Positions 26,116 to 64,000 of a stretch of DNA of 64,000 bases are shown here, piece after piece. Both the position numbers and the translations under genes were made by a program. The notes below the pieces were generated by a model. That model was not told the origin of the DNA. It did no database searches and saw nothing but the letters and a program-made list of their open reading frames with translations. Position 1 is the stretch's first letter; each line of letters starts with the position of its first letter. The DNA comes from Candidatus Altiarchaeales archaeon (GTDB lineage Archaea; Altiarchaeota; Altiarchaeia; IMC4; SCGC-AAA252-I15), in assembly GCA_014727915.1 (NCBI GenBank), contig WJMO01000006.1, forward strand, positions 130,137-194,136, written 5' to 3'.

Positions 26116-26985
26116 ATGGTGGATGACAGTATCAGAGAAGACATCCTGAAAGCCCAGGAGAACGAGATAACGGAGTACCTCATCTACAGGAGACTTGCGG
26201 AAGCCACCAGCGACCGGAAAAACAGCGAATTGCTTAGGAGGATAGGCGAGGACGAGCTGGCCCACTATGAATTCTGGCGAGATCACAGCGGAGAGGACGT
26301 TAAACCCGACACGTTCAAGGTGTGGCGATACACCATGGCCGCTAAGCTGTTGGGTCTGACGTTCGCGGTGAAGCTGATGGAGCAGGGTGAGGAACGGGCG
26401 CAGATAGCATACGATGATATCTCAAAGCACATCCCAGAAGCTGCTAGGATAATCGAGGAGGAGGACGAGCATGAAGGGCAGCTGCTGGGCATGTTGGACG
26501 AGGAGAGGCTGAGGTACATGGGGTCTGTCGTGCTGGGACTGAACGACGCCCTCGTGGAGTTGACCGGCGCACTGGCAGGGTTCACACTCGCCTTCCAGGA
26601 CAGCAGACTAGTTGCTGTTACGGGTTTGATAATGGGTTTCGCGGCGTCGCTTTCCATGGCAGCCAGCGAGTACCTGGCAACCAAGTCGGAGGATGATGGC
26701 AAACACCCGGTTAAAGCCTCGGTGTACACCGGCTCCGCTTATGTGCTGACCGTGGCGCTTCTGATACTGCCCTACCTAGCATTAACCAACATCTACCTGA
26801 GCCTGGCGTTCACGTTGGTGAACGCAATCCTGGTGATCGCGTTCTTCACATTCTACATCTCAGTCGCGAAGGACCTAAGCTTCAGAGAGCGGTTCCTGGA
26901 GATGGCGGGCATCAGCATGGGAGTGGCCCTGCTCACCTTCATAATCGGGTACGCTGTAAGGTCCGTGTTCGGAGTCGACTTCTAA
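26116..26985 (+). CDS. VIT1/CCC1-family Fe/Mn transporter with N-terminal ferritin-like domain
   Basis: Ferritin-like (E...EDEHEGQ) N-terminus fused to VIT1-type TM domain. Confidence 0.7.
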
Positions 26986-29426
26986 AACTTTTTGATCTTC
27001 GCCCTCCGCAGCATGTTCGCGTTGGTCACCACCGTTATGGAGCTGGTCGCCATGGCAATCTCGGCTATCACCGGATGGGCCAAACCAAGCACCGCCGCCG
27101 GCAGGGCTATAAGGTTGTAGAAGAACGCCCAGAAGAGGTTCTGCTTGATCTTGGAGAACGTAGCCCGCGAAAGTTTAACTGCCGTGACAACCGACGACAG
27201 TTCCCCGCGTACGAGAGTCACGTCCGCTGCTTCGATCGCTATGTCCGTGCCGGTCCCGATGGCTATGCCGACGTCAGCTTGGGTAAGTGCTGGGGCGTCG
27301 TTTATGCCGTCGCCGACCATCGCTACAACACCGCTCTCCCTCTGCAACCTCTTTATCTCATCTACCTTGCCGTCTGGCAGGACCTCCGCCAGAACACGTT
27401 CTATGCCCGCCCTCTCAGCTATGGCCTCAGCGGTCCTCTGGTTGTCGCCGGTTATCATTGCAGGCTCCAGTCCGAGAGCCTTCAGCTCGGCTATGGCCTC
27501 CACCGAGTCCTCCTTCAATGTGTCGGCAACCGCGATAACACCAGCCAGTTCACCGTCCACCGCGACGAACATGGCGGTTTTAGCCTCTCCCTCGAGCCTC
27601 TGGACCTCTTCGACCGCAGGATAAACGTCAACGCCCGCATCGGACATGAGACGCCGGCTGCCAACGTGAACCACCTTCCCGCTGACCTCTGCCCGGACTC
27701 CCTTGCCGGACACGGACTCGAAGCCGGTGATGTCCCTGAGTTCCGCCGAATCCGCCCGGGCCTTCTCTACTATCGCCTCGCCCAGAGGATGCTCCGAGCC
27801 GGACTCGACACTGGCCGCAAGAGAAATCAAACCACCAGCCCCGCCGTTAAATGGTATCACATCGGTCACCTCGGGCTTTCCCTTGGTTATGGTGCCGGTC
27901 TTGTCGAATACTATGGATCTAACGTCCTTCAACGCCTGCATGGCAGCGCCATTCCTTATTAGTACTCCGTTCTCAGCCCCCATCCCACTGCCGACCATCA
28001 GCGCCGTGGGGGTCGCGAGGCCGAGCGCGCAAGGGCATGCGATCACAAAGACCGCCACAGTGGCGAATACCGCGAGAGAAACCGAATCGTGAGTCAAGTC
28101 AACCCAAGGAAGATAATCCTGGAGGAGGCCTGCGCCGACCTTCATTGTGCCGGGAAACAGCATCCAGGAGGAGAAAGTCAGCAACGCCACAACCACCACT
28201 ACCGGCACGAACACGCCAGTGACCCTGTCTGCGAACTCCTGTATCGGCACCTTCGTTCCCTGAGCCTCCTCGACCATGCGGATGACATTAGCAAGGAACG
28301 TGTCCTTACCCACCCTGGTGGCTCGGACCTTCAAAAGGCCGTTCTGGTTCACCGTCGAACCAATGACCTCATCGCCTGCGTTCTTGGCGACCGGCATGGA
28401 CTCTCCCGTGGCCATGCTCTCGTCCACGGAACTCGAACCGTCGAAGACCACCCCGTCAGTTGGTATCTTCTCCCCCGGGCGGACGACCATGACATCACCC
28501 ACAGCAACATCCTTCAGCTGAACCTCTTTTTCAACCCCGTCAACGATTACACGGGCCGTCTTAGCCTCCAGTTTCAATAGCTTCTTGATCGCCTGGGACG
28601 CCCTGCCCTTCGCCCTCGCCTCAATGTACCTGCCGGTGAGGTGGAAGCTCATTATCATCGCCGAAACACCAGCGTAGTTCAATATGGGAGTGAAAAGAAC
28701 CGCGACACCCGTGAGATACGAAGACAATGTCCCCATGGCTATGAGAACGTCCATGTTGCCGCTACCATGCCGGACCGAGTTCAAGGCGCTCTTGTAGGTG
28801 GAGGAGCCGGCCCACGCGAGGACGGGAGCCGCCAACACGACCATTCCAATGTTGAACACCCGCATGTTGGGCCATGCTACCCCAATGAACATCTCGGGGA
28901 TCATCCACACCATTATCGGGACCGTGAACGCCCATGCGATGAACGCCCTCCTCCGCGCCTCGGAGTATTCGCCATCCTCGTCCTCTTCGACTTCCTCGTC
29001 TTCCACTACCTCGAAGCCAGCCGCTTCAACAGCCGATTTAAGCTCATCATAGCCGACCTTGACAGGGTCATAGTTGACGGTCGCCCTTTCGCTCGCGAAG
29101 TTCACGACCGCATCCACACCATCCAGTTTTTTCAGAGCATCCTCGGTGTTCTTGGCGCAGCTAGCACAGTGCATCCCCTTGACCTTGAAGGTTAATTTTC
29201 GATTGTCAGCTTCCTCCACGTCGTAGCCCGCGTCTTCAACGCGCTTCCTGATATCTTCCCCTCCGACCTTGTCAGGGTCGAATTCGACATATGCCTTCTC
29301 AGAGGCGTAGTTGACATTGGCGGATGAGATGCCATCCAGCTTCTTCAACGCCTTCTCTATGTTAGCGGCGCAACCCGCACAGTGCATTCCCTTAACCTTG
29401 AACGACTTCTTCATCATCTTATCCAA
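26982..29426 (-). CDS. copA: Heavy-metal (copper-type) P1B-type ATPase with two N-terminal HMA domains
   Basis: GMHCAGCA and GMHCASCA metal-binding motifs, [22 protein letters not shown]. Confidence 0.9.
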
Positions 29427-29430
29427 CCCC

Positions 29431-30054
29431 TTAATAGAATCTGACCCCCTCTTTTAAATCGTCTTTCTCGATGGTCACGAAACCATCCTCCACAGCATGC
29501 GGAAGATATGCAGGCCAGCAACCTCCTCCACGGTTCATCCCGCCCAAATCGTCTATCCTGAAGTGCCTTCCGCAGTTCACGCATTTCACGTCGGAACCAA
29601 CTTGTGCGTATCCCTTGGATCCTCCGCAGACTTCGCAGGCGTCGAATGCGGTCCTAACCTCTCCGTCACTTCCCAAGACCACGAGATACCTTATCGTCTC
29701 GCCTCCGAAGTCAAAGCTGTATTTGCCGATCTGAGAGGATATCTCAGACAAGGGTATCCTGACCACACTATCATCAGAGCCGATAGCAGACTGGGAGTCA
29801 GACCCGGATACAACACTCCCAACAACATCAGAGACTGCATTTGACTCTTCCGCTCTAGGAGCGTCATTTCCCGACCCACCGGACAAAACCGCGAACGCGG
29901 CCGCCAGGACGACCAAGCCTAACAGCAGGTGTGCGCTGCCAAAACCTCCACCTCCATCAACCGATGCCTGCCCGCCGGATTCTTCTGACACTCTCACGCT
30001 ACCGCTCTTAGATGCTCGCCCTCTATTTTTCTCCCTTTTTCCCTTTCTTGCCAT
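29431..30054 (-). CDS. Membrane-anchored protein with CxxCG...CxxCG zinc-ribbon-like motif (DUF2318-like?)
   Basis: TM helix then DACEVCGG...CVNCGRHF; start probably ATG 30054. Confidence 0.45.
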
Positions 30055-30058
30055 TTTA

Positions 30059-30421
30059 TCATTCACCAGTAAACCCGGCACCTGGACCTATGCCACAGCT
30101 GCCCTCTTCGATGTCTCCCTTGCACTGGGGGCAGACTTCATCGAATCTTCTCTGGGCTATCATCTCATCGCACCTGCATATGCCGTCATCCCAAAGCCAA
30201 TGCCCCATGAAGCACATGTCACACACCGGGCTGATACAGCACTTGTACTCCCCGGACTCAACCTTCTCGGCTATCAGAGAGTTCACCTCATCCAAGGCAT
30301 TAGCCCGCCTAACCTGGTAGCTGTCAGGATAGGGCGGGTTCCCGCCTGAAGAGTATGCCAGAATGGATGATATGCCTATCACCGCCGCCAACGCGACAAG
30401 TCTCTTATCCACCGGCACCAC
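30059..30421 (-). CDS. Secreted/anchored Cys-rich putative metal-binding protein
   Basis: Signal/TM then CCISPVCDMC...CRCDE...CPQCKG...SCG (11 Cys in ~60 aa). Confidence 0.45.
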   Translation of the reverse strand: MVPVDKRLVALAAVIGISSILAYSSGGNPPYPDSYQVRRANALDEVNSLIAEKVESGEYKCCISPVCDMCFMGHWLWDDGICRCDEMIAQRRFDEVCPQCKGDIEEGSCGIGPGAGFTGE

Positions 30422-31073
30422 CCAGCTCTGAGCCTATCACTTCCCGGAATGCGCTCATCGGCTGGGCGCCGACTACCTTCTGCCCGCCTATGAAGAACGT
30501 CGGGGTCCCGGACACCCCCCGGCTCCTTCCTTCTGAGATATGGCTTTCCACCAGCGACTCCTTCGAGCTGGAGTCCAGGCACCTGTTGAACTGCAACCTA
30601 GCTAACCCAAGGTCAGAGGCTATGGACTTCAGGACATCCGAGTCTCCGACATCATAGCCTGAACCGTGCCTTTCGAAGAGCATGTCATGGTATTCCCAGA
30701 ACATGCCCTGGTCCCTGGCGCACTCAGCGGCCTCGGCAGCCTTGTCAGCGCCCCTGTGAAAGGAGAGGGGAAACTGCCTGAAAACAACCTCAATCCGGCC
30801 CTCATACTCTTCACGTATCTGGTTGACAGTGGTCGCAGCCCTCGCGCAGTAGGGGCATTTGAAGTCGCTGTAGACGACAACCTGCAAAAGACCCCCACCG
30901 CCTGAATCAGATGCAACCACGGCATTAGGGGGCGACTGAACGCCCTCAGCCGGGGGTGTTTCTGATGGCTGCAATAGCGCGTATGCAGCCACCGCGAACA
31001 ACACGGCGATGACGACGCTCAACGCCAGTATGTTATTCCCACCGCAGCAACCGTCTGATCCTTCCCGTTTCAT
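30405..31073 (-). CDS. DsbA-like thioredoxin-fold thiol:disulfide oxidoreductase, membrane-anchored
   Basis: CPYC active site; start probably ATG 31073 overlapping upstream stop. Confidence 0.7.
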   Translation of the reverse strand: MKREGSDGCCGGNNILALSVVIAVLFAVAAYALLQPSETPPAEGVQSPPNAVVASDSGGGGLLQVVVYSDFKCPYCARAATTVNQIREEYEGRIEVVFRQFPLSFHRGADKAAEAAECARDQGMFWEYHDMLFERHGSGYDVGDSDVLKSIASDLGLARLQFNRCLDSSSKESLVESHISEGRSRGVSGTPTFFIGGQKVVGAQPMSAFREVIGSELGGAGG

Positions 31074-32356
31074 CTTCCACCTCCGCATCCGCAACCGCAT
31101 CCGCCGCCACCGCATGAACCGCCACATGAGCCCCCACCTGGGACCTCGATGGTCTCAACCGCCTCTGCAACAGCAGCAGGGTCCTCGATGTTTATGTCTT
31201 CTTTTACCACGAAAACCCCGGGTATCATCCCCATCCAGCAGCTCCAGGGTATAGTACCAGAATCGTCTGGCGTGAACTCGATCGTCTGCAAACCGGGTTC
31301 TATGTCGAATTCCAAACCTAGCTTGGGCACCTGTATGGCGTTGTTACATCCGTTTATCTCCTTGCCGTCTATTACCCACTTGACTGGAACCCCCCTTTTC
31401 AGAACGAACTTGTCCGGCTTCCAACCGTACCGGTTCACCTCCATCTCTATTACCTGGTAGCCGCCTTCAAGCTCCAATGAGAGGTTGCCTGGGTCGTCTT
31501 CCATCGCCTGAGCCGACACAAGGATGGTGTTGAAGTCCGCTCCCGTGCCAGTCAACGCCAACCCCCGGTTCACCATAACCAGGCCCAACAGTATAACTAC
31601 TACCCCAGAGTAGCGAACTATCTTATGGGTCATCCTGGAGCTAACCACCGATGTCAAAACCCCGAAGCCGAGCAGGACAGGTAGTGTGCCCAACCCGAAC
31701 ACTGCAAGGTATAGAGCGCCGTGGACTGGACTGCCAGATGATGCTGCCAGTATGTACACCGCCTGCAGTGGGCCGCAGGCTATCATCAGCCCGTTCAACA
31801 ATCCGATAACCGCGGGGCTCCTGCTCTCATTCTCCTTTTCAGACCGCCACCTGTCTATGAACGAGGGCATTGTAAGCCTGAAGCGACGGAACCATTTCAT
31901 CATTCCCAGCATGTTGAACCCGAACAAAACCAGGAACAAACCCGCGAGTATGGCCGCCGCACCCCGCATGAACGGGGTGAAAGTGAAGAAAGACCCTATG
32001 AAACCGAATACGGCACCGAAGAACGCGTAGGACACTGTCTTGGACAATCCATACGTTAGGTGGGAGCCGTAGTTGATACGCCCGTCCGCGGCCTCCTTGG
32101 CAGAGTAGCTTACCACAAAACCCCCACACATGGCAACACAGTGGAAGCCGGTCAGCAGGCCTATTATGAACAGCAACATTATTGAAGTGTCACTGTCCAA
32201 TGAGGGCATGTACACGCCAAAGCTCTCATGAAGCATATAGTATCCCCCGGCGAGGATGGCCAACACACCCAAAACCACGGAGACGTTCTTCAAGTCCGCA
32301 GTTGAAAACGCTATCCTTCTGTTGATATTAGAATTTTTCATGTTTATCCAGAGCAA
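31070..32356 (-). CDS. DsbD_2/CcdA-like transmembrane domain fused to cupredoxin-like domain with Gly/Cys-rich tail
   Basis: TM Cys pair GFHCVAMCGGF; C-terminal beta-rich domain; tail GGGSCGGSCGGGGCGCGCGGGR. Confidence 0.55.
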   Translation of the reverse strand: MLWINMKNSNINRRIAFSTADLKNVSVVLGVLAILAGGYYMLHESFGVYMPSLDSDTSIMLLFIIGLLTGFHCVAMCGGFVVSYSAKEAADGRINYGSHLTYGLSKTVSYAFFGAVFGFIGSFFTFTPFMRGAAAILAGLFLVLFGFNMLGMMKWFRRFRLTMPSFIDRWRSEKENESRSPAVIGLLNGLMIACGPLQAVYILAASSGSPVHGALYLAVFGLGTLPVLLGFGVLTSVVSSRMTHKIVRYSGVVVILLGLVMVNRGLALTGTGADFNTILVSAQAMEDDPGNLSLELEGGYQVIEMEVNRYGWKPDKFVLKRGVPVKWVIDGKEINGCNNAIQVPKLGLEFDIEPGLQTIEFTPDDSGTIPWSCWMGMIPGVFVVKEDINIEDPAAVAEAVETIEVPGGGSCGGSCGGGGCGCGCGGGR

Positions 32357-32397
32357 CTAGGATGAAACAATATAAGCCAACATAGGTGAAACTGGTT

Positions 32398-32871
32398 TCA
32401 TTTAAGGACCACTATGTTTGTCAGGCCTCTCCTACGCCTCTCTAGCAGGTTCTTGGACTCCAGCCGGTCCAGGTTCCGGGTTACCTTAACCTTTGACAGC
32501 CCGGTCTTCTCGGATATCTCACTCTGGAAGATTGTGCCTCCAGAGTCTGAGATCAGCTGGTAGACTGTCTTCTCATCCCCATCCAGGCTTCCGAGGTTCT
32601 CCAGCCACTTCTCCCTGCCTGAAGGCTCCTGATCCAATCTGCCGCCCTTCAAAGCCAGGTATATGCCGATGAAGAACAGTATCACGACACCAGCCAATCC
32701 GCCATAGAAGACGGGAGGGACCTTGAAATGGATCATCTCGCAGCTTTCCCCGCAGGTGCAGGACTGGGTGCTCATATCGGCGAGAGTGTCTAGGAGAACT
32801 GACAATAACGCCACCAGAAAGACCGCCAATAGTATCAGCACAATCCCTACTTCCCGCAATCCGGCCCTCAT
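32398..32871 (-). CDS. Membrane-anchored wHTH regulator with CxCxxxC motif
   Basis: TM - STQSCTCGESCEM - TM - C-terminal wHTH (KTGLSKVKVTRNLDRLESKNLLERRR). Confidence 0.55.
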   Translation of the reverse strand: MRAGLREVGIVLILLAVFLVALLSVLLDTLADMSTQSCTCGESCEMIHFKVPPVFYGGLAGVVILFFIGIYLALKGGRLDQEPSGREKWLENLGSLDGDEKTVYQLISDSGGTIFQSEISEKTGLSKVKVTRNLDRLESKNLLERRRRGLTNIVVLK

Positions 32872-32877
32872 CTTAAG

Positions 32878-33726
32878 CTAAACCCATTCCTCCCTTAGCT
32901 TTTCTCCTTTTATGCTTATTACCGCCGATTTCACAGGCACCTTCCGCTGAGCCCTTTCAACAGCCTCTTTCGCCATCTGCAGCAGCCCAGTGCAGCATGG
33001 GACTTCCATTGTCACCACCGTGAGCGTGTTTATCCCGGCGTCATCAATGAGTGAAACGAGCTTCTCCACGTACGTCTGCTGTTCGCTGTCCAGTTTCGGG
33101 CAGGCTATCGCCAGCCGCCTTCCCTTCAAGTACTCACCGTGGAAGCGCCCGTAAGAGTATGCCGCACAATCAGCCGACAACAGCACGTCAGCGCCCTTGA
33201 AGTAAGGTGCCAAAGGCGATACCAGGTGCATTTGGACAGGCCACTGCCTCAGCTGCGAGGAAACCTCACCAACCACTTTACCCACTACCTCCGGGTCATG
33301 GGAGAAGTCCATAGTCCTGGCTCCCGGGCAGCCCCCCGCAGACCCTGAGCAAGGCGTCTCAGGTGCTGCGGTTTCCGGGACCTCCAAACCCTTATCCTTC
33401 AGGAATCCGACAGCCTCGTTGTAGTATCCCATCTCCCCATGATCTCTCAGATGTTCAAGGTGGGCTTTTATCGTGTTATAGCCCTGCTTGACGATGTTCT
33501 CCATGACCCTGCGCTCATCGTAGGGTTCCGCCTCCCGCTCGACTATGTCTATCGCGCCTTCGGGACAGTGTCCCATGCAGGCTCCGAGCCCGTCGCAGAA
33601 GAGGTCGCTGACCAGCCGGGCCTTGCCGTCTATCATCTGCAACGCTCCCTCGGGGCAGTTGGGTATGCACAAGCCGCACCCTGTGCACTTGTCCTCGTCT
33701 ATCTCGATTATGCTACGCTTTACCAT
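32878..33726 (-). CDS. 4Fe-4S dicluster-domain protein with additional Cys-rich C-terminal domain
   Basis: CTGCGLCIPNCP and CDGLGACMGHCP ferredoxin motifs; C-terminal CAAY...CPKL...PCCTG. Confidence 0.65.
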   Translation of the reverse strand: MVKRSIIEIDEDKCTGCGLCIPNCPEGALQMIDGKARLVSDLFCDGLGACMGHCPEGAIDIVEREAEPYDERRVMENIVKQGYNTIKAHLEHLRDHGEMGYYNEAVGFLKDKGLEVPETAAPETPCSGSAGGCPGARTMDFSHDPEVVGKVVGEVSSQLRQWPVQMHLVSPLAPYFKGADVLLSADCAAYSYGRFHGEYLKGRRLAIACPKLDSEQQTYVEKLVSLIDDAGINTLTVVTMEVPCCTGLLQMAKEAVERAQRKVPVKSAVISIKGEKLREEWV

Positions 33727-33737
33727 GTTGTATCCTC

Positions 33738-34085
33738 TCAGCCGAACACGAAGGCTGATAGTGTGGGCAGCAGCAGGTACAAGACCATCAACGTCAGAGA
33801 GACATAGGTGACTATGCTAACAGCCACCATCGTCCTATGGGCTTTGACGTCGTTCAAGGTGCATGTGCCGCCGCACTGCCTTTTGATCTTGAAGTAGAGG
33901 GACAAGAGCATGAAAACCGTGCCCGCCGCTATGAAGAAGAGCTTATACCTTGGAAGCTTCAATGCTGCGGTCATGCTCCCAGCCCCCAATGTCCCGAATA
34001 TCATGACCAGTATCAGGGGCAGCGTGCAGCAGCTCGACGCTATGATCGTGGCCTTCACCCCCGTCCAGAATCCCTTCAATCCCAT
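33738..34085 (-). CDS. MerT-like heavy-metal transport membrane protein
   Basis: 115 aa, 3 TM; vicinal Cys pair in TM1 (ASSCCTLPL) and loop Cys pair (CGGTC). Confidence 0.5.
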   Translation of the reverse strand: MGLKGFWTGVKATIIASSCCTLPLILVMIFGTLGAGSMTAALKLPRYKLFFIAAGTVFMLLSLYFKIKRQCGGTCTLNDVKAHRTMVAVSIVTYVSLTLMVLYLLLPTLSAFVFG

Positions 34086-57920: not shown

Positions 57921-58007
57921 GCCCCCGGAGCAGCCACCAACCACAACCAACAATAAGAGCCAAATAGCATATGTGCTGGTTTTAGGCTAAAAAAGGCGTT
58001 AGGGACC
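57921..58007 (+). repeat. Direct repeat A flanking hicBA cassette
   Basis: gcccccggagcagccaccaaccacaaccaa...gagccaaatagca...gttagggacc; imperfect copy at 58749-58877. Confidence 0.6.
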
Positions 58008-58069
58008 AATAAATCAAAGGTTTAACATTCTTAAATAGTATTTAATTATCTTACATTCTTATATCTTTT

Positions 58070-58303
58070 ATGATGAAAAAAACTCAATTTCCCCTTGTTA
58101 TTGAAAAAGATGAGGATGGGTTCTATGTTGTAGAATGCCCAGTGTTGGAGGGGTGTTATTCTCAGGGTAAAACCTTGGATGAGGCGATGAAGAATATTCG
58201 GGAAGTCATTGAGATCTGTCTTGAGGAATCGTCCACTAAAGATTTTCTGAAAAACTATCACCCAGTAGAGTTTAGCTTCCATACTATTACTGTTGGTTCA
58301 TGA
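58070..58303 (+). CDS. hicB: HicB-family antitoxin (UPF0150-like)
   Basis: FPLVIEKDEDGFYVVECPVLEGCYSQGKTLDEAMKNIREVIE typical of HicB N-domain. Confidence 0.7.
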   Translation: MMKKTQFPLVIEKDEDGFYVVECPVLEGCYSQGKTLDEAMKNIREVIEICLEESSTKDFLKNYHPVEFSFHTITVGS

Positions 58304-58527
58304 TGGCATCGAAGCTGCCCATCGTTTCTGGCAAACAAGCAGTCAAAGCGTTCAACAAACTTGGTTATGCTGTTATTAGAAGGAGGAGTAGCCATATTCG
58401 CCTGGAACATGAAAGTAAGAAAAAGATAACAATCCCAGACCACAAAACACTAGGAAAAGGAATACTAAGAAAACTAATCCGCGATGCTGAGATAACAATA
58501 GAAGAATTCAACAAATTACTAAAGTAA
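58300..58527 (+). CDS. hicA: HicA-family toxin (YcfA-like)
   Basis: 75 aa; SGKQAVKAFNKLGYAVIRRRSSHIRLEH pattern; start overlaps hicB stop. Confidence 0.7.
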   Translation: MMASKLPIVSGKQAVKAFNKLGYAVIRRRSSHIRLEHESKKKITIPDHKTLGKGILRKLIRDAEITIEEFNKLLK

Positions 58528-58748
58528 AATTTTCACCCCAATTCTTTAAAGGAGTTCAACACCCCCCAAATCAACGAATCCTCATCCGACTCAATGAAGC
58601 TCTCGAAGCGATCGAAAAGGAAGCCAACAAATTCTTCGTGCAATTGTCCAAGAACAAGCAGTTCAGAACTTGGCTGGAGAAGACGTTCACAGCCCCGAAG
58701 ATCGAGGCGGGGTTGAGTTTGCCCTTTTTTTCGGTTGCCGGTTTCGAA

Positions 58749-58877
58749 GCCCCAGGAGCAACCACCAACCCACAACCAAGAAAAAGAGCCAAATAGCAAA
58801 TCAGCTAGAATTAAGCTAAACCCGTCGAAACTACCAACACACAACCAAGAACAGAAGCCAACAGCGTGTTAGGGTCC
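58749..58877 (+). repeat. Direct repeat B flanking hicBA cassette (with internal partial duplication)
   Basis: gccccaggagcaaccaccaacccacaaccaag...gagccaaatagca...gttagggtcc. Confidence 0.6.
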
Positions 58878-58885
58878 TTTTTCTG

Positions 58886-59722
58886 CTATGTTTTTTTGAA
58901 TTTAAGGTGTATTATCTCTGGTTGGGCGAAGAATCTTATAGGTAGTCCTGTCACTCCTACTCCATTTGTTATTATGACTTTTGTGTGTTCTGTTTCCACG
59001 ATGCCACTTATGTATTTTTCACCGTAGTCGCTTGTCTTGTAGGGGGTCCATAAACCGAAGAAAGTGACCTGTCCACCGTGTGTGTGCCCTGCTAACATAA
59101 GGTCTATTTTGTCTGTTTTAATCTCTTCTGCGTAGTCTGGATTGTGTGAGATAAGGATTACAAAGTCCTCTTCTGAAACATTCTCTATTGTTGGTTGTAT
59201 GTCCTGTGTGTCTTCCCATATGTCTCCGACGCCACCTACCCTAATCTTGTTCCCATTATCTGTAATCCATTCACCCTGGTTGTCGACGAGCGTTATATCG
59301 GCCTCCTCTAGGGCTTTCCTTGCTTGTTCTGCATCAGCCCAATGTTCATGATTGCCTAACACACCATAGACTCCCAGAGGTGCATGGAGGTCTTTTAATT
59401 CTCCTATGCAGGGGTCAATGTATTTTATGTCATCGTAGATGTAGTCGCCACCCAACAAAATAATATCTGGTTCGAGGTCGTTAATCATCCCTATTATGTC
59501 TCTTGTCCTCTCAACTGACAACAGGGGACCGCAGTGTATGTCAGCCACGAAAACAGCAGTCTTACCATTAAACGAACTGGGAACATCCTCGTCAACAATA
59601 TCTATCTCATTAACTCGAATAAGATATGCCTCAATGAACGAATAGGCAAAACATAAAAGAAACACCATTCCCATACCGACTAGTATCCTTTTCCACCGCA
59701 TCTCAAACCATATAACCCCCAA
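58886..59722 (-). CDS. Calcineurin-like metallophosphoesterase
   Basis: N-terminal TM; motifs GDYIYDD, GNHEHW, GHTHGGQ. Confidence 0.75.
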   Translation of the reverse strand: MGVIWFEMRWKRILVGMGMVFLLCFAYSFIEAYLIRVNEIDIVDEDVPSSFNGKTAVFVADIHCGPLLSVERTRDIIGMINDLEPDIILLGGDYIYDDIKYIDPCIGELKDLHAPLGVYGVLGNHEHWADAEQARKALEEADITLVDNQGEWITDNGNKIRVGGVGDIWEDTQDIQPTIENVSEEDFVILISHNPDYAEEIKTDKIDLMLAGHTHGGQVTFFGLWTPYKTSDYGEKYISGIVETEHTKVIITNGVGVTGLPIRFFAQPEIIHLKFKKT

Positions 59723-59953
59723 TCAATAAATATTTCTGGATTTCACTCTAACAACAAACAGATATATGGCTCTAAAGGTCCATCTCCCCATCAAAAGGCT
59801 ATATTGCACCAGAACAAACAGGTGAGCTACAAGAACAAACAGGGTAGGGTGTTGTCTTGTCTTGTGAAGTCTCCTTGGCCTGTTTGGGCTGAATATTGGT
59901 TTTTATCCTGTCTTGTATGCTAGGATGATGGTTCCTTGATCCTTGCCTGTATT

Positions 59954-60415
59954 TTAAGGAATAATCTCGTTGTGGATGTAACTATGAGCAGCTAAGGAAT
60001 ATGCCCCACTAATGGCATGGACCATTACACAAGCTATCAGTGAGACTAATGAAAAGATAAAATTGAAAATAAAAACTGGGATTATTATTCGGTTACGTCT
60101 TGAATTAACTTTTTTCTCTAGATAGACATGTATGCTGGAAAAACCAATCCCATAACAGATCGGGTTAATTATCAGAAAAATTTGTTCAATCATTCCCTGC
60201 ATTAAATTCATGTTCTGTGCATCTGAGAGTAGATTGAATACTGGTTTGGTAAATGTAAGGATGATATTTCCAGCTGAGAATATGCTCTGTCCTGCAATAA
60301 TAAAAATTAGTAGATAGAACATAATCTGCAAGACAATAATAAAAAAAGCAATTAGGGCCGACTTTATCCATTTGTTTTCTTGTGAAAAAATCTTGCGCCT
60401 TAAGTTACCTAGCAT
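59954..60415 (-). CDS. Membrane protein, hypothetical (AT-rich gene)
   Basis: 153 aa, 4 predicted TM helices; low GC. Confidence 0.4.
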   Translation of the reverse strand: MLGNLRRKIFSQENKWIKSALIAFFIIVLQIMFYLLIFIIAGQSIFSAGNIILTFTKPVFNLLSDAQNMNLMQGMIEQIFLIINPICYGIGFSSIHVYLEKKVNSRRNRIIIPVFIFNFIFSLVSLIACVMVHAISGAYSLAAHSYIHNEIIP

Positions 60416-60439
60416 TTTAGCCTATATCGAGTTCCTTTT

Positions 60440-63400
60440 TTATTCGAAGTTTAGTACTCCGTCCCGCAATTTGAATGTTCCGTTGTCTAGTTCTATTTTG
60501 GAGTCTGCGATTGATACTGTCAGTTCCCTTGCAGTGAATGTTGATTCTATCACTCTCATTGTGCCGTTGACGTAGATGTCGTCTACTGTACAAGTGTTGT
60601 CTGAGGTAACATTCCAGTCTCCGTATTCGGGGCATGATTCTCCACTGCATCCTGCTTCGAGTTGGATGGTTATGTTGATTGCTTCGCTGGTTGAGTATAT
60701 GCCCTCTGTTGTCTCTATTTCTATAGTGAATTCGTAGCTGTTGCCGGATGTCCCTGTTGCGTTGACACTCCAGCTGGGACTGCATGATTGCCCGTATGTC
60801 AGTGGTCCACAGTCGTAGGGGTTTTGGCTGGTTGTGTAGAATGGTGTTCCACTATTCATCGGGATTGCTCCTTTTCCTATGGTGACCGCTGTGCTGTTTA
60901 CTGCGGTCCCGTTCATGTATTCGTCTCCTGGCGTGATTTCGCATATTATGCCATCTCCTATTGTGTAGTTGGAGTATTCCAGCGTATTGCTTGTTTCATC
61001 GCTTATCACTTCACCGTTTTTGAACCAGCGGTAATGGGCAGTTGGCGTGTCATCGTCATCCCCTAGTCCCAGGTGGTTGCATTCCAGGTTCTCGCTGTAC
61101 GGTGGCGAGGAGGGCAGTATGTATGCAAGAGTGACATAGGGTTTGCATCCTCCTCCGCTAACGCAAGATGATGTGCAGGTCACTTCTGTGTCGTTCCATG
61201 TTCCATCCCCTCCCCCTATGCATGTCCTGTAGCTTTGTCCGTCGCAGTAACGGTAGTTTTGGCTGTACTGGCTGCCGTCGTGTACGCACCCGTCTGATAG
61301 GCTTGAGCAGAATTCCCCGCTGTCGTCATAGTCGTCCGGGTAGCAGTAACCTCCACTACAGACATCATCTGGGTCGCTGCCTTCCTGTTCCTTGTCTTCA
61401 CAGTCTCCGCCATCAGATACTTGTGTTAGGCAGTCTCCGTCTTTGTTGCAGTATTCTCCTGCTGAACAGTTACTGTGCATTACACACCCGATCGTGTATT
61501 CAAGATAAATGTCTTCTGGAAGCCATTGCACTTCGTTCAGTTTAGGATCTGGCTCCCCTGGTGGTCCATCACAGTCTGTTTCTGATTCGACGTCTAGATG
61601 CAGCTTAAATCCTATTATACTCTTGTTTTCGTTTAAGTAACTGTCTTGCACTTCTGTTAGTATGTCTTCGTCAAGGCTGCAGTCACAATCATGCCATGAT
61701 CCGTCATCCCAGCTCATATCACAGATGGTCGCTATTTCAGTTGAGCCTATGCCTTTATCGTCGCATGATAGGCCTCCAAAATCTTCATCTAGAATGTTTA
61801 TTGTTAGTTCGTCTCCACTATTGCCTGAACCTATTGCAGAGCAGTCTCCACTGGAACTTCCTTTTAGCCTCATTGTTTTGACGTCTAAGGTGGCGTTTTC
61901 GATGATCTCTGAGATGTTGTATGTCCACCATCCCATGGAAAAATCCCCGTATTCCAGTGCGCTGCCTGTTGCTCTTATAAGATTGTCTCTTAAGTCGCTT
62001 CCACTGCAGTTGTTTTTATCGCAGCTTTGGAAATCTAGTTCTTCTACATCGTTGTATTCTTGAAGGGGTTTAATAGTCGGGTCTATGATGATGGGATATT
62101 CTGCTTCCAATAGCCATTTTTTCGGGAGATTCAATCGTAGGATCGTATCTCCCAACTCTTTGTAGATTGTATATGATGTGTCGAGTTTTTCACTGTGGTT
62201 GTCTGTGATGAACGGCCTCTGTATTGTGAAATACGATAATTCCACTGGTATTCTGCCTTGTTGTTTCTTTAGTTTGAATGGAATATCTTCTTCAACGAGT
62301 TTTTCACTGCCATCCCAGTTTATACCATTGACAATCGGGGTTAAGTGCTCTGGATAATCAAGGATATATGTTATTTCAAAGTCCTGTGTTGAAGATGCAA
62401 AGAGATTTGAAGAGTCTACAATGATGGATTCCTTTAGCAAATCGTCTGTTAGTTCATACTTGATGTCAACACCTTCACCAAGAATATTCGCATAAAATGG
62501 TTCGTCGTTAAACATGGATAAGCTGTTTGAATCATAGAATAATTTTTGATTAGTGGTTGGCTTTATTTTAAAGGATAGTGTTGTGTCTAATGCTGTGAAA
62601 TCAACGGTCTTATCCATGTGGAATACTGCACTATAGTGTTTTTTCTCGTATTTAATGTCCTCTTCGGCTGAAACCAGGGTGGTTGTGGTTGTTGAGGTGT
62701 CCATTGTTGTAGTGGTTAGTTCAATTAGGGTGGTGGTTGTAGTTTCAATTGTCGTGGTTGTGGTCTCTGCTGGGAGGGTTGTAGTGGTTGAGGATGGTTG
62801 GAGTGTGATAGTTGTTGTGGTATCTAATAATGGAATGGTGGTGGTTGTCTCACTCGTGGAGGTAGTTGAGGATGTGCTTGTTGTGCTTACCAGGATTTTG
62901 CTTTCATCCTGTGTTGATGAGGCCAGATCTGGATCCAGGATTACGGTAACATTACCACAGTCGTCTACCAGGCATGTCACGTTCACGGTAAAATCAAAGA
63001 ACTGATTTTGGTAAACTATTTCAGAAGATACCAAAGGATCAAGAATAGATATATCTACTTTTGGAAGTGCAAGGACCGTGTAATTGAATACTGCTACGTT
63101 GTTGGTTTCGTCCAGTTCTTCGACAGAGTCTTTGCTGTCTGCTATCACGTATACATGGTTGGTTCCTGTGTTGTTTGTGACGTTCCATGTTAAATCAACA
63201 AGATAATCTTCTCCAACGTCAAGCAGGCCCATTGATGAATTATATATTTCTTCTGCTCCGGTGGGTGTTGCTACTATAATGCTTATTTCCGCGCTTGAGG
63301 TAGTTGATGCTAGTGTCCCGTCATTTGTGACCGATGCGTTTATAGTGATGATCTGGTTTTCATAGAGGTTCTGTGGCGTGACATTCAAGGTTGAGTTGAA

Positions 63401-64000
63401 GTCGGGCATATCCGCACCGATTGCCGTGAAAATTGTGTTATGATCAATGAGCGCCCATACGTATTTATTGATGGTATCGACTCCAGTTATTGCTTCTTCA
63501 AGCCATTCTGAAGCGGTTTCATTCCACCAGTGAATTTTTAGAGTTTCTTCTGGAACGGTTAATGCACTGGAATTATAGGGGATTTTCAACAAGAAATAAT
63601 TGAATGATCCACTGATCTCAACATTCACATATTTACCTATGCTACTGTTATCACCGCCAGTTGGAGCAGAGATTATATCAAATCCTGAGAAATATGCAAG
63701 GGAATCCAAACTGTTTAGGATTCCAAGTATGCCCTCTGTTTCGTTAGTTGGTGGTTCTGGTTTTACTAGTATTGTTGCATAAGCCTGGTTATTTGCTTCA
63801 TCAGTTTCTTCAATATCATCTTGGGAGTCTATTTCTACAAATATTGTATGGTTATTTGCATCGGGGATATTCCATGATACGCCAACTTGTTTACTTCCTC
63901 CTGCTTCGACAACATCCGCAATGCTTGAACCTATGTATACTCCTCCATCACTTATGTTACCATCATAAAAACTAACATTAACGTCATATGCATTGCTACT
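60440..64000 (-). CDS. Giant surface protein (partial, N-terminus beyond window): CARDB-like repeats, ~90-aa poly-Thr linker, Cys-rich C-terminal domains
   Basis: Reading frame stays open upstream of track start (TTG 63709) to the window edge; DETNN-type motifs (ELDETNNVAVFNYTV; ETDEANNQAYATILV). Confidence 0.65.
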   Translation of the reverse strand, partial: SSNAYDVNVSFYDGNISDGGVYIGSSIADVVEAGGSKQVGVSWNIPDANNHTIFVEIDSQDDIEETDEANNQAYATILVKPEPPTNETEGILGILNSLDSLAYFSGFDIISAPTGGDNSSIGKYVNVEISGSFNYFLLKIPYNSSALTVPEETLKIHWWNETASEWLEEAITGVDTINKYVWALIDHNTIFTAIGADMPDFNSTLNVTPQNLYENQIITINASVTNDGTLASTTSSAEISIIVATPTGAEEIYNSSMGLLDVGEDYLVDLTWNVTNNTGTNHVYVIADSKDSVEELDETNNVAVFNYTVLALPKVDISILDPLVSSEIVYQNQFFDFTVNVTCLVDDCGNVTVILDPDLASSTQDESKILVSTTSTSSTTSTSETTTTIPLLDTTTTITLQPSSTTTTLPAETTTTTIETTTTTLIELTTTTMDTSTTTTTLVSAEEDIKYEKKHYSAVFHMDKTVDFTALDTTLSFKIKPTTNQKLFYDSNSLSMFNDEPFYANILGEGVDIKYELTDDLLKESIIVDSSNLFASSTQDFEITYILDYPEHLTPIVNGINWDGSEKLVEEDIPFKLKKQQGRIPVELSYFTIQRPFITDNHSEKLDTSYTIYKELGDTILRLNLPKKWLLEAEYPIIIDPTIKPLQEYNDVEELDFQSCDKNNCSGSDLRDNLIRATGSALEYGDFSMGWWTYNISEIIENATLDVKTMRLKGSSSGDCSAIGSGNSGDELTINILDEDFGGLSCDDKGIGSTEIATICDMSWDDGSWHDCDCSLDEDILTEVQDSYLNENKSIIGFKLHLDVESETDCDGPPGEPDPKLNEVQWLPEDIYLEYTIGCVMHSNCSAGEYCNKDGDCLTQVSDGGDCEDKEQEGSDPDDVCSGGYCYPDDYDDSGEFCSSLSDGCVHDGSQYSQNYRYCDGQSYRTCIGGGDGTWNDTEVTCTSSCVSGGGCKPYVTLAYILPSSPPYSENLECNHLGLGDDDDTPTAHYRWFKNGEVISDETSNTLEYSNYTIGDGIICEITPGDEYMNGTAVNSTAVTIGKGAIPMNSGTPFYTTSQNPYDCGPLTYGQSCSPSWSVNATGTSGNSYEFTIEIETTEGIYSTSEAINITIQLEAGCSGESCPEYGDWNVTSDNTCTVDDIYVNGTMRVIESTFTARELTVSIADSKIELDNGTFKLRDGVLNFE

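What the first reader, a model, noticed from the sequence alone, without database searches (positions are those of the whole stretch)
31070..32356. DsbD_2-like membrane domain fused to cupredoxin-like domain with Gly/Cys-rich tail
A TM domain with an in-membrane Cys pair (HCVAMCGG) is joined to a beta-rich cupredoxin-like domain and ends in GGGSCGGSCGGGGCGCGCGGGR. This suggests electron or metal relay across the membrane to a copper-binding module. The domain calls are from motif reading only.
Basis: inference. Interest (0 to 1): 0.6.

Follow-up and report, generated by a model that had tools for sequence, protein, structure and literature searches.

The report
Copper-relay membrane protein in archaeal operon
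This gene encodes a membrane protein with a DsbD-like core carrying buried cysteines, fused to a copper(I)-chaperone-like domain and a cysteine-rich tail predicted to lie outside the cell; it belongs to a large, untested protein family that sits beside copper-export pumps and probably helps handle toxic copper.

Summary

TM1 H72-C73-x-x-M76-C77-G and TM4 C194-G-P are invariant in 98 of 98 ungapped diverse relatives. Loop charges predict N-terminus inside, cupredoxin and tail outside. Relatives usually carry an N-terminal HMA domain, which this copy lacks. They occur in DPANN archaea, CPR bacteria, Clostridia and methanotrophs, often beside CopZ and CopA. Here the gene lies in an eight-gene, tightly packed same-strand cluster (probably one operon) ending in copA.

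Best explanation (about 0.45): a Cu(I) thiolate-relay permease acting with CopA. Main rival (about 0.28): a DsbD-like reductant conduit keeping outer thiols reduced. The TM4 Cys aligns with DsbD's redox Cys, and a DsbA-like gene overlaps the stop codon.

No experimental study of the family was found. The NCBI name "sulfite exporter TauE/SafE" is unsupported. This is a catalogued but uncharacterised family, of moderate interest.

The parts
31070..32356 (-). Whole ORF, 428 aa: extra TM helix, DsbD_2 six-TM core, CupA-like cupredoxin domain and Gly/Cys tail. The stop codon is at 31070-31072.
32219..32302 (-). TM0 (aa 19-46), an extra N-terminal helix. In relatives it links a cytoplasmic HMA domain to the core. 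The HMA domain is absent here.
   Evidence: AF2 helix 19-46; hydropathy peak 25-43; alignment with HMA-bearing homologues
31580..32173 (-). DsbD_2 membrane core (aa 62-259), six TM helices.
   Evidence: Pfam PF13386 E=4.1e-45 and PF02683 E=3.2e-8; hhalign to E. coli DsbD TM region, probability 96%
32123..32143 (-). TM1 motif H72-C73-V-A-M76-C77-G78, which lies mid-helix in the model.
   Evidence: Invariant in 120/120 close homologues and 98/98 ungapped diverse representatives
31763..31795 (-). TM4 motif N188-G-L-M191-I-A-C194-G-P-L-Q198 at a helix break.
   Evidence: C194/G/P invariant. C194 aligns with the TM4 redox Cys of DsbD and CcdA. The helix is broken at 190-195 in the AF2 model.
31202..31474 (-). 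CupA-like cupredoxin domain (aa 295-385), predicted extracytoplasmic.
31346..31348 (-). C337, equivalent of CupA C74, the ligand that bridges both Cu(I) sites.
   Evidence: Alignment; ligand roles from PMC5646241; invariant
31226..31240 (-). C373-W-M375-G-M377, equivalent of CupA C111-x-M113-x-M115.
31073..31138 (-). Gly/Cys tail GGGSCGGSCGGGGCGCGCGGGR (aa 407-428, five Cys), predicted disordered.
   Evidence: pLDDT below 50 for aa 413-428. CGCG occurs in the C-terminal tail of 116/120 homologues, with 3 or 5 Cys in 109/120.
30405..31073 (-). Membrane-anchored DsbA-like thioredoxin-fold protein with a CPYC motif. Its ATG overlaps the target's TGA (ATGA).
   Evidence: Pfam Thioredoxin_4 and DSBA; sequence at the junction; PDB relatives MdbA/DsbA and ScsC
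30059..30421 (-). 120-aa membrane-anchored Cys-rich protein with no family match.
   Evidence: A homologue lies in the same position in Woesearchaeota locus L005.
29431..30081 (-). FtrD-like/DUF2318 membrane-anchored protein with CxxC...CxxC.
   Evidence: PF10080 E=1.1e-22; within 300 nt on the same strand as target homologues in 14 of 82 loci
26982..29426 (-). CopA-type P1B ATPase with two N-terminal HMA domains, the last gene of the cluster.
   Evidence: Pfam E1-E2_ATPase, Hydrolase and 2x HMA. An ATPase core lies within 8 kb of homologues in 47 of 82 loci.
32398..32871 (-). Membrane-bound winged-helix protein (DUF7343/MarR-like) with a Cys motif, a candidate regulator 41 nt upstream of the target.
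   Evidence: Pfam; near target homologues in 17 archaeal loci, upstream in all and mostly on the same strand
32878..33726 (-). 282-aa protein with an N-terminal 2x[4Fe-4S] ferredoxin domain.
   Evidence: Pfam Fer4 families. Homologues lie 19 nt downstream of the target homologue in L041 and about 5.6 kb away in L002 and L012.
33738..34085 (-). MerT-like small membrane protein, sub-threshold, the first gene of the cluster.
   Evidence: PF02411 27.2 bits against a cut-off of 32.9; NCBIfam MerT 30.9 bits against 150

Best explanation
The protein is a copper-homeostasis membrane protein that most likely passes Cu(I), or another thiol-loving metal ion, across the membrane by ligand exchange between sulfur ligands. 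It would do this instead of passing electrons. Shown: a DsbD-superfamily six-helix core. Shown: an invariant buried ligand set, H72, C73, M76 and C77 on TM1 and M191 and C194 on the broken TM4, with M261 on TM6 strongly conserved. Shown: a C-terminal CupA-type domain with an intact two-copper Cys/Cys/Met/Met site, followed by a flexible Gly/Cys tail. Shown: position inside a tightly packed eight-gene cluster that ends in a CopA Cu(I) pump. Predicted: N-terminus in the cytoplasm, cupredoxin domain and tail outside. Inferred: Cu(I) is handed from a cytoplasmic donor to the mid-membrane Cys/His/Met site. That donor is the fused HMA domain and CopZ in most relatives. It is unknown here because the HMA domain is missing. 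The core then switches access as DsbD and CcdA do, and the metal is picked up outside by the tail and the CupA-like site. The result would be extracytoplasmic capture or removal of Cu(I) alongside CopA. The direction (export) is inferred from the operon partners and from the reported CsoR control of bacterial relatives.
For: CupA ligands C74/C111 (site 1) and C74/M113/M115 (site 2) are described in PMC5646241. They map to C337/C373/M375/M377, which are invariant in 120/120 close homologues and 42/42 diverse relatives. Several buried residues cannot take part in disulfide exchange yet are invariant or strongly conserved: H72 and M76 (42/42), M191 (41/42) and M261 (36/42), together with Y102, Y110 and Q198. 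C73 and C77 are one helical turn apart (i, i+4) on the same face, next to the H72/M76 pair, which suits metal binding. Metal-chaperone folds sit on both sides of the membrane. The HMA domain is present in 109/120 close homologues and 66/100 diverse representatives. A Cupredoxin_1 hit or a C.M.M motif is present in 45/100 and 109/150 respectively. Loop charges (family mean K+R) are 2.6/3.2/6.9/1.0 on one side and 0.2/1.0/0.0/1.2 on the other, giving N-in and C-out. Gene context: a CopA core lies within 8 kb in 47/82 loci, usually directly downstream, and a CopZ-like gene lies nearby in 20, mostly upstream. Annotated plasmids of Haloferax, Streptomyces and Deinococcus show the same pairing with HMA proteins and/or P-type ATPases. 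Streptomyces pFRL6 carries two separate CcdA genes next to its copy, which suggests a non-redundant role. COG2836 proteins (HMA + DsbD_2 + DUF2318) were inferred to belong to the CsoR copper regulon of gut Firmicutes (PMC4938975). From my own knowledge: most families of the LysE clan are metal or solute exporters, and CcoA uses HxxxM and MxxxM motifs for Cu import.
Against: No member of the family has been tested. The core retains the TM4 Cys that aligns with the redox Cys of DsbD and CcdA and a TM1 Cys, so a DsbD-type electron relay is not excluded. In this window a DsbA-like CPYC protein is translationally coupled to the gene, which fits a reductant conduit. This copy lacks the cytoplasmic HMA donor domain, and no free CopZ gene is present in the window. 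A second Cu(I) route beside CopA looks redundant, and no energy coupling is evident. No structural analogue of the membrane domain was retrieved. I could not inspect model coordinates, so the clustering of the ligands is inferred from helix positions only.
Confidence: 0.45

Rival explanations
1. The protein is a DsbD/CcdA-like reductant conduit. The membrane Cys residues carry reducing equivalents from the cytoplasm to the outside. This would keep the Cys ligands of the CupA-like domain, the tail and neighbouring outer thiol proteins (DsbA-like, 120-aa Cys-rich, FtrD-like) reduced under copper stress. It may also drive Cu(II) to Cu(I) reduction by the CupA-like domain. The working analogy is ScsB/ScsC or DsbD/DsbC in copper tolerance.
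For: There is homology to DsbD_TM. C194-G-P aligns with the TM4 redox Cys of E. coli DsbD and Streptomyces CcdA, and a TM1 Cys is retained. The orientation matches DsbD, with the C-terminal domain outside. The DsbA-like CPYC gene overlaps the target's stop codon, and its PDB relatives include ScsC 'suppression of copper sensitivity' proteins. The same pairing occurs in L005 and L062. CupA Cys residues were reported to reduce Cu(II) and to need an unknown reductant (PMC5646241). E. coli dsbD sits directly beside cutA. From my own knowledge, dsbD was first found as a copper-tolerance gene.
Against: It does not explain the invariant His and Met residues in the membrane. It does not explain the second TM1 Cys at i+4, a spacing poorly suited to a disulfide within a helix. 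It does not explain the fused cytoplasmic HMA domain in most relatives. A thioredoxin-fold partner is adjacent in only 2 of 82 other loci. The TM1 motif is HCxxMCG rather than the PCxxP context of DsbD and CcdA, and it was not covered by the profile alignments. Bona fide CcdA genes coexist with a family member in Streptomyces pFRL6.
Confidence: 0.28
2. The protein is an outer-face Cu(I) acceptor or sink for CopA. The CupA-like domain and tail take Cu(I) as it leaves the pump, much as CusF does in Gram-negative bacteria. The membrane domain would serve mainly as an anchor or docking module, not as a pathway.
For: The gene order places the protein directly upstream of copA in many loci. The CupA-like domain is most similar to a chaperone that partners with CopA. 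Its predicted location is outside the membrane.
Against: A simple anchor would not need a 200-residue core with more than 20 invariant residues, including three Cys, a His and several Met. Haloarchaeal relatives keep the membrane core next to the ATPase without any cupredoxin domain. The cytoplasmic HMA domain of relatives is unexplained.
Confidence: 0.1
3. The protein is a Cu(I) importer. The outer CupA-like domain and tail capture copper and pass it inward through the membrane site to HMA and CopZ, in the way MerP and MerT import Hg(II).
For: The layout mirrors the Mer relay, with a metal-binding domain outside, Cys residues in the membrane and an HMA domain inside. Close homologues, about 50% identical, occur in copper-demanding methanotrophs. 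A MerT-like gene heads the cluster.
Against: Most carriers are anaerobes. From my own knowledge, Clostridia, DPANN archaea and CPR bacteria have little known need for copper. The usual partners are the efflux pump CopA and CopZ. Relatives were inferred to be under the copper-excess repressor CsoR. [quoted passage not shown] I did not verify that this protein is a homologue.
Confidence: 0.07
4. The protein is a sulfite or organosulfonate exporter of the TauE/SafE family, as the NCBI record names it.
For: Only the database name supports this.
Against: There is no Pfam TauE match at E<=0.01, while DsbD_2 scores 154.6 bits. No NCBIfam model matches. The fused domains and neighbours are all metal-related.
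Confidence: 0.01

Closest known systems
Streptococcus pneumoniae CupA, and the CupA-like N-terminal domain of pneumococcal CopA (PDB 4F2E/2MRY, 4F2F)
   Different: CupA is a small protein on an N-terminal anchor that faces the cytoplasm and feeds CopA from inside. Here the domain follows a seven-helix membrane region and is predicted to face outside. It also carries an extra Cys-rich tail.
DsbD / CcdA / ScsB thiol-disulfide electron transporters (PF02683)
   Same: The six-helix core is homologous (hhalign probability 96% and 91%). The TM4 Cys-x-Pro at a helix break is equivalent. The orientation is the same, and both have a link to copper tolerance.
   Different: The TM1 motif is H-C-x-x-M-C-G, not P-C-x-x-P. 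There are three buried Cys plus a His and several Met. The flanking domains are metal chaperones (HMA, CupA-like) rather than thioredoxin-like or Ig-like redox domains.
MerT/MerP/NmerA mercury relay
   Same: The logic is the same: a thiophilic metal is handed between Cys pairs from a soluble metal-binding domain, through Cys residues inside the membrane, to an HMA-fold domain on the other side.
   Different: The membrane fold is unrelated. The partners are copper proteins rather than mercury proteins, and the likely direction is opposite. This is a resemblance in mechanism only; the target has no Pfam or NCBIfam MerT match.
HMA-DsbD_2-(cupredoxin/DUF2318) fusion proteins of COG2836/COG4633, inferred CsoR regulon members in gut Firmicutes (PMC4938975)
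   Same: It is the same family, with the same TM motifs and the same association with CopA, CopZ and DUF2318.
   Different: The window copy lacks the N-terminal HMA domain. Its DUF2318 partner is a separate gene. It carries the CGCG-type tail typical of DPANN archaea rather than the CC-type tails, or no tail, seen in many of the more distant relatives.

Membership tests
DsbD_2 (PF13386), DsbD/CcdA superfamily | Profile match above the curated threshold over the whole domain | tested here: met
   154.6 bits against 24.9, aa 62-259 matching profile positions 2-198 of 199. DsbD_TM scores 33.6 bits against 27.1.
DsbD_2 (PF13386), DsbD/CcdA superfamily | Six-helix core with a conserved Cys next to Pro at a break in TM4 | tested here: met
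   AF2 helices, with the TM4 break at 190-195. C194-G-P aligns with DsbD 'SPC' and CcdA 'TPC'.
DsbD_2 (PF13386), DsbD/CcdA superfamily | Conserved TM1 Cys in a P-C-x-x-P context | tested here: inconclusive
   A Cys is present (C73, C77) but in an H-C-x-x-M-C-G motif. The profile alignments start after this motif.
DsbD_2 (PF13386), DsbD/CcdA superfamily | Transfers reducing equivalents from thioredoxin across the membrane | not testable with these tools
   This needs redox-state trapping or complementation experiments.
CupA-type cupredoxin-like Cu(I) chaperone | Cupredoxin-like beta-sandwich closest to CupA | tested here: met
CupA-type cupredoxin-like Cu(I) chaperone | Ligands C74, C111, M113 and M115 of the two Cu(I) sites | tested here: met
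   C337, C373, M375 and M377 align with them. Ligand roles come from PMC5646241. They are invariant in 120/120 and 42/42 sequences.
CupA-type cupredoxin-like Cu(I) chaperone | Cytoplasm-facing domain on an N-terminal membrane anchor | tested here: not met
   The domain is C-terminal to seven predicted TM helices, and loop charges place it outside. This is a prediction, not an experiment.
CupA-type cupredoxin-like Cu(I) chaperone | Binds Cu(I) and hands it to CopA | not testable with these tools
   This needs metal-binding and metal-transfer assays.
Pfam Cupredoxin_1 (PF13473) | Score at or above the gathering threshold | tested here: not met
   21.5 bits against 27. Of 100 diverse relatives, 45 match at E<=1e-3 (best 5.9e-30), so the family is related but this copy is divergent.
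Type 1 blue-copper electron carriers (plastocyanin/azurin type) | His, Cys, His, Met ligand set | tested here: not met
   The first ligand position is Cys (C337). The C-terminal loop is C-W-M-G-M with no His.
TauE/SafE sulfite exporters (PF01925) | Profile match to the TauE family | tested here: not met
   No match at E<=0.01 in Pfam and none in NCBIfam.
HMA-DsbD_2-cupredoxin fusion family (COG2836/COG4633 type) | N-terminal cytoplasmic HMA domain with GMxCxxC | tested here: not met
   It is absent. Only 41 nt separate the ORF from the upstream gene. The only HMA motifs in the window are the two in CopA. The motif is present in 109/120 close homologues.
HMA-DsbD_2-cupredoxin fusion family (COG2836/COG4633 type) | TM motifs HCxxMCG and CGP, a C-terminal C...CxMxM domain, and a CopA/CopZ neighbourhood | tested here: met

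The most novel reading that the evidence does not exclude
The DsbD scaffold has been converted from an electron conduit into a copper conduit. This would be a previously unrecognised, non-ATPase class of Cu(I) transporter, widespread in anaerobes and also present in methanotrophs. It would move the metal by thiolate ligand exchange from a cytoplasmic HMA domain, through a buried Cys3/His/Met site, to an outer CupA-like domain and a Cys-rich 'fishing-line' tail.
Probability: 0.4. Interest if true: 0.75.

Novelty: new variant of a known kind. Interest (0 to 1): 0.5.

Why it matters
Copper export in bacteria and archaea is explained almost entirely by P1B ATPases, with RND pumps added in Gram-negative bacteria. 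A second membrane route or partner would change how cop operons are read. This one is conserved next to CopA in DPANN archaea, CPR bacteria, Clostridia, haloarchaeal and actinobacterial plasmids, and methanotrophs. It would also give a concrete test of whether a thiol-disulfide transporter fold can carry metal ions. [quoted passage not shown] Culturable carriers such as Clostridium sporogenes, C. beijerinckii and Methylobacter marinus A45 make the question directly testable.

Tried and rejected
- **AlphaFold database search:** the afdb50 library was not available.
- **Sequence search of the PDB with the membrane domain alone:** it found nothing even at E<=10.
- **First AF2 model (16 sequences):** it was poor in the membrane region, with mean pLDDT 65.9. 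A 120-sequence alignment raised the mean to 81.7. Coordinates cannot be inspected, so ligand distances were not measured.
- **Five literature searches:** they found no experimental work on the fusion family.
- **Truncation or frameshift as the cause of the missing HMA domain:** rejected, because only 41 nt lie upstream before the next gene and no HMA-coding frame exists there.
- **The tail as a low-complexity accident:** rejected, because the same Cys pattern recurs in homologues 50-70% identical.
- **The long ORF call for the DsbA-like gene (ATG at 31127), which overlaps the tail:** rejected in favour of the ATG at 31073, which overlaps the stop codon.
- **Methylobacter marinus neighbourhood:** it was uninformative.
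- **Looking for family members that had lost the TM4 Cys but kept the TM1 motif, which would have separated the two main models:** none were found.
Full report
**Observation.** The ORF at 31070..32356 on the minus strand encodes 428 aa.

**Domain calls.** Pfam gives DsbD_2 (PF13386) at E=4.1e-45 over aa 62-259. It gives the related DsbD_TM at E=3.2e-8. Cupredoxin_1 scores only 21.5 bits, below its cut-off of 27. No TauE model matches in Pfam, and no NCBIfam model matches at all.

**The C-terminal domain.** A sequence search of the PDB matches aa 296-384 to the Streptococcus pneumoniae Cu(I) chaperone CupA (2MRY/4F2E) at E=2.6e-10. It also matches the CupA-like metal-binding domain of pneumococcal CopA (4F2F). 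With a family profile these E-values become 5e-16 and 1.4e-7.
- An AlphaFold2 model built on 120 homologues has mean pLDDT 81.7, with 89-98 across the core of this domain.
- Foldseek agrees, with target-normalised TM-scores of 0.85 for both 4F2E and 4F2F.
- CupA binds two Cu(I) ions through C74/C111 and C74/M113/M115 (PMC5646241).
- These align with C337, C373, M375 and M377.
- All four are invariant in 120 close homologues and in 42 diverse ones.
- The site has no His ligands, so it is not a blue-copper electron-transfer centre.

**The membrane domain.** The model and a hydropathy scan give seven helices: an extra TM0 followed by the six-helix core, with TM4 broken around C194. TM1 carries H72-C73-x-x-M76-C77-G78, and TM4 carries N188...M191...C194-G-P-L-Q198.
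- These residues are invariant in 120/120 close homologues.
- They are present in 98/98 ungapped sequences among 100 representatives that share only about 36-64% identity with the query's membrane domain.
- Other conserved polar residues are Y102, S109, Y110, T224 and M261.
- Profile comparison with the E. coli DsbD membrane region (probability 96%) and a Streptomyces CcdA (91%) aligns C194-G-P with the TM4 redox cysteine of those proteins.
- The TM1 motif falls outside the aligned region.
- The membrane domain has no sequence relative in the PDB, and no convincing structural analogue was retrieved.

**Topology.** Family-mean K+R counts per loop are 2.6, 3.2, 6.9 and 1.0 on one side. They are 0.2, 1.0, 0.0 and 1.2 on the other. 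This places the N-terminus in the cytoplasm and the cupredoxin domain and tail outside. The orientation is the same as in DsbD. It is a prediction, not a measurement.

**The family.** More than 2000 proteins match in the word-indexed search. In the representative library, 6382 clusters match at E<=1e-3. The usual architecture is an N-terminal HMA domain (GMxCxxC), TM0, DsbD_2, one or two CupA-like domains and often a Cys-rich tail.
- Among 100 diverse representatives, Pfam finds HMA in 66 and Cupredoxin_1 in 45.
- Motif counts over 150 representatives give a C.M.M motif in 109 and an HMA motif in 86.
- The tail contains CGCG in 116 of 120 close homologues, with three or five Cys in 109 of them.
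- More distant relatives carry CC-type tails or none.
- The window copy is unusual because it is complete yet lacks the HMA domain. Only 41 nt lie upstream, and the only HMA motifs in the window are the two in CopA.
- Carriers include Altiarchaeota, Woese-, Nano-, Micr-, Iain- and Pacearchaeota, and Methanosarcinales.
- They also include CPR bacteria, many cultured Clostridia, and methanotrophs such as Methylobacter marinus A45 and Methylocystis sp. H62.

**Context in the window.** Eight genes lie on the minus strand with gaps of 41 nt or less, or with overlaps. In order they are:
- a sub-threshold MerT-like protein;
- a 282-aa ferredoxin-domain protein;
- a membrane-bound winged-helix protein (DUF7343);
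- the target;
- a membrane-anchored DsbA-like protein with a CPYC motif;
- a 120-aa Cys-rich protein;
- an FtrD-like/DUF2318 protein;
- a CopA-type ATPase with two HMA domains.

The DsbA-like start codon overlaps the target's stop codon as ATGA.

**Context elsewhere.** I compared 82 related loci.
- A CopA ATPase core lies within 8 kb in 47, mostly directly downstream on the same strand.
- A small CopZ-like gene lies nearby in 20, mostly upstream.
- An FtrD-like gene lies within 300 nt on the same strand in 14.
- The DUF7343 gene lies upstream in 17, all archaeal.
- A DsbA-like gene is adjacent in only 2.

Two loci examined in detail show CopZ, then the target homologue, then an optional FtrD-like gene, then CopA, with overlapping stops and starts. 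Annotated plasmids of Haloferax and Streptomyces place family members next to heavy-metal P-type ATPases. Those of Streptomyces and Deinococcus place them next to HMA proteins. The Streptomyces island also holds two ordinary CcdA genes. A published regulon inference puts COG2836 proteins (HMA + DsbD_2 + DUF2318) in the CsoR copper regulon of gut Firmicutes (PMC4938975).

**Mechanism.** Two readings fit the anatomy.

The metal-relay reading explains more of it.
- Metal-chaperone folds sit on both faces of the membrane.
- A buried set of soft ligands includes His and Met, which cannot do disulfide chemistry.
- The two TM1 Cys residues are spaced one helical turn apart.
- An intact two-copper site lies outside, followed by a flexible thiol-rich tail.
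- The family shows constant company with CopA and CopZ.

Thiolate ligand exchange is chemically close to thiol-disulfide exchange. A DsbD-type alternating-access core could therefore plausibly carry Cu(I).

The electron-relay reading is kept alive by three points.
- The DsbD-equivalent Cys is retained in TM4, and a Cys is retained in TM1.
- The DsbA-like gene is translationally coupled in this window.
- CupA's Cys residues were reported to reduce Cu(II) and then need an unidentified reductant.

I put the metal relay at about 0.45 and the reductant conduit at about 0.28. An outer acceptor for CopA with a passive anchor gets about 0.1, a Cu(I) importer about 0.07, and the annotated sulfite exporter about 0.01. 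The copper-handling role itself is much more secure than any one of these mechanisms.

**Comparison with what is known.** The outer domain works like CupA and meets its fold and ligand criteria. It does not meet CupA's cytoplasmic placement, so I do not file the protein as a CupA orthologue. The core is a member of the DsbD superfamily by profile and by the TM4 Cys. Its TM1 motif departs from the family's P-C-x-x-P context. The Mer relay is a mechanistic parallel only.

**Novelty.** The architecture is already catalogued, both in JGI's COG-derived names and in the precomputed Pfam domain lists. I found no experimental study of it in five literature searches.

**Verdict.** The protein is an HMA-less, DsbA-coupled variant of a large, uncharacterised copper-associated family that is probably mis-named in public records. 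Interest is moderate. It would be high if the DsbD-fold copper-conduit reading proved true.

Noticed in passing
window 26982-34085 (- strand): Eight consecutive genes with gaps of 41 nt or less, or overlaps, look like one thiophilic-metal operon. In order: MerT-like, ferredoxin-domain protein, DUF7343 wHTH, the target, DsbA-like, 120-aa Cys-rich, FtrD-like, CopA. Four of the products are predicted to be membrane-anchored Cys-rich proteins facing outward.
   Followed up: partly
window 32398-32871 (-): A 157-aa protein has two predicted TM helices, a SCTCGESCEM Cys motif and a C-terminal winged helix (DUF7343/MarR-like). Homologues lie upstream of the target family in 17 archaeal loci and in none of the bacterial loci. 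It is a candidate membrane-bound copper-responsive regulator.
   Followed up: partly
window 30059-30421 (-): A 120-aa membrane-anchored protein with many Cys (CCISPVCDMC...CRC...CPQC...C) has no Pfam or NCBIfam match. A homologue occupies the same position, between the DsbA-like gene and copA, in Woesearchaeota locus L005.
   Followed up: partly
window 32878-33726 (-): A 282-aa protein has an N-terminal 2x[4Fe-4S] domain and an unassigned Cys-containing C-terminal half. The precomputed Pfam label on a homologue is PF27217 'AF_0155'. Homologues lie 19 nt downstream of the target homologue in L041 and about 5.6 kb away in L002 and L012.
   Followed up: partly
window 30405-31127 (-): The mechanical ORF call for the DsbA-like gene starts at 31127, inside the target's tail. 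The ATG at 31073 overlaps the target's TGA and is the likelier start. The product then begins MKREGSDGCCGG, with a Cys pair ahead of its membrane anchor.
   Followed up: yes
loci L013, L015, L019, L021, L023, L026, L027, L063, L070, L073: Methanotrophs carry homologues 46-55% identical to the archaeal protein. They include Methylobacter marinus A45, Methylocystis sp. H62, Methylocella, Methylococcaceae and a Bathymodiolus symbiont. This is closer than the Clostridia copies (about 35-39%) and suggests horizontal transfer between very distant lineages.
   Followed up: partly
P0002-P0004, P0006-P0012 and similar; L001 8001-9866: Many Altiarchaeota homologues of 590-630 aa carry two tandem CupA-like domains, each with the C...CxMxM ligands. 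The window copy has one.
   Followed up: partly
L088 (Streptomyces sp. F12 plasmid pFRL6): A metal island holds a DsbD_2-cupredoxin gene, an 85-aa HMA protein and a P-type ATPase. It also holds CopY-type, MerR-type and ArsR-type regulators and two ordinary CcdA genes with a peroxiredoxin.
   Followed up: no
window 58001-64000: GC content drops to 0.40-0.44 from 0.51-0.58 across most of the rest of the window. This may be a foreign or otherwise distinct segment.
   Followed up: no
L001 1532-2317: A neighbouring Altiarchaeota protein carries a precomputed Pfam label PF27854 'Heavy_Cys_CGP', a family I could not examine here. It may be relevant to the Cys/Gly-rich motifs in this system.
   Followed up: no
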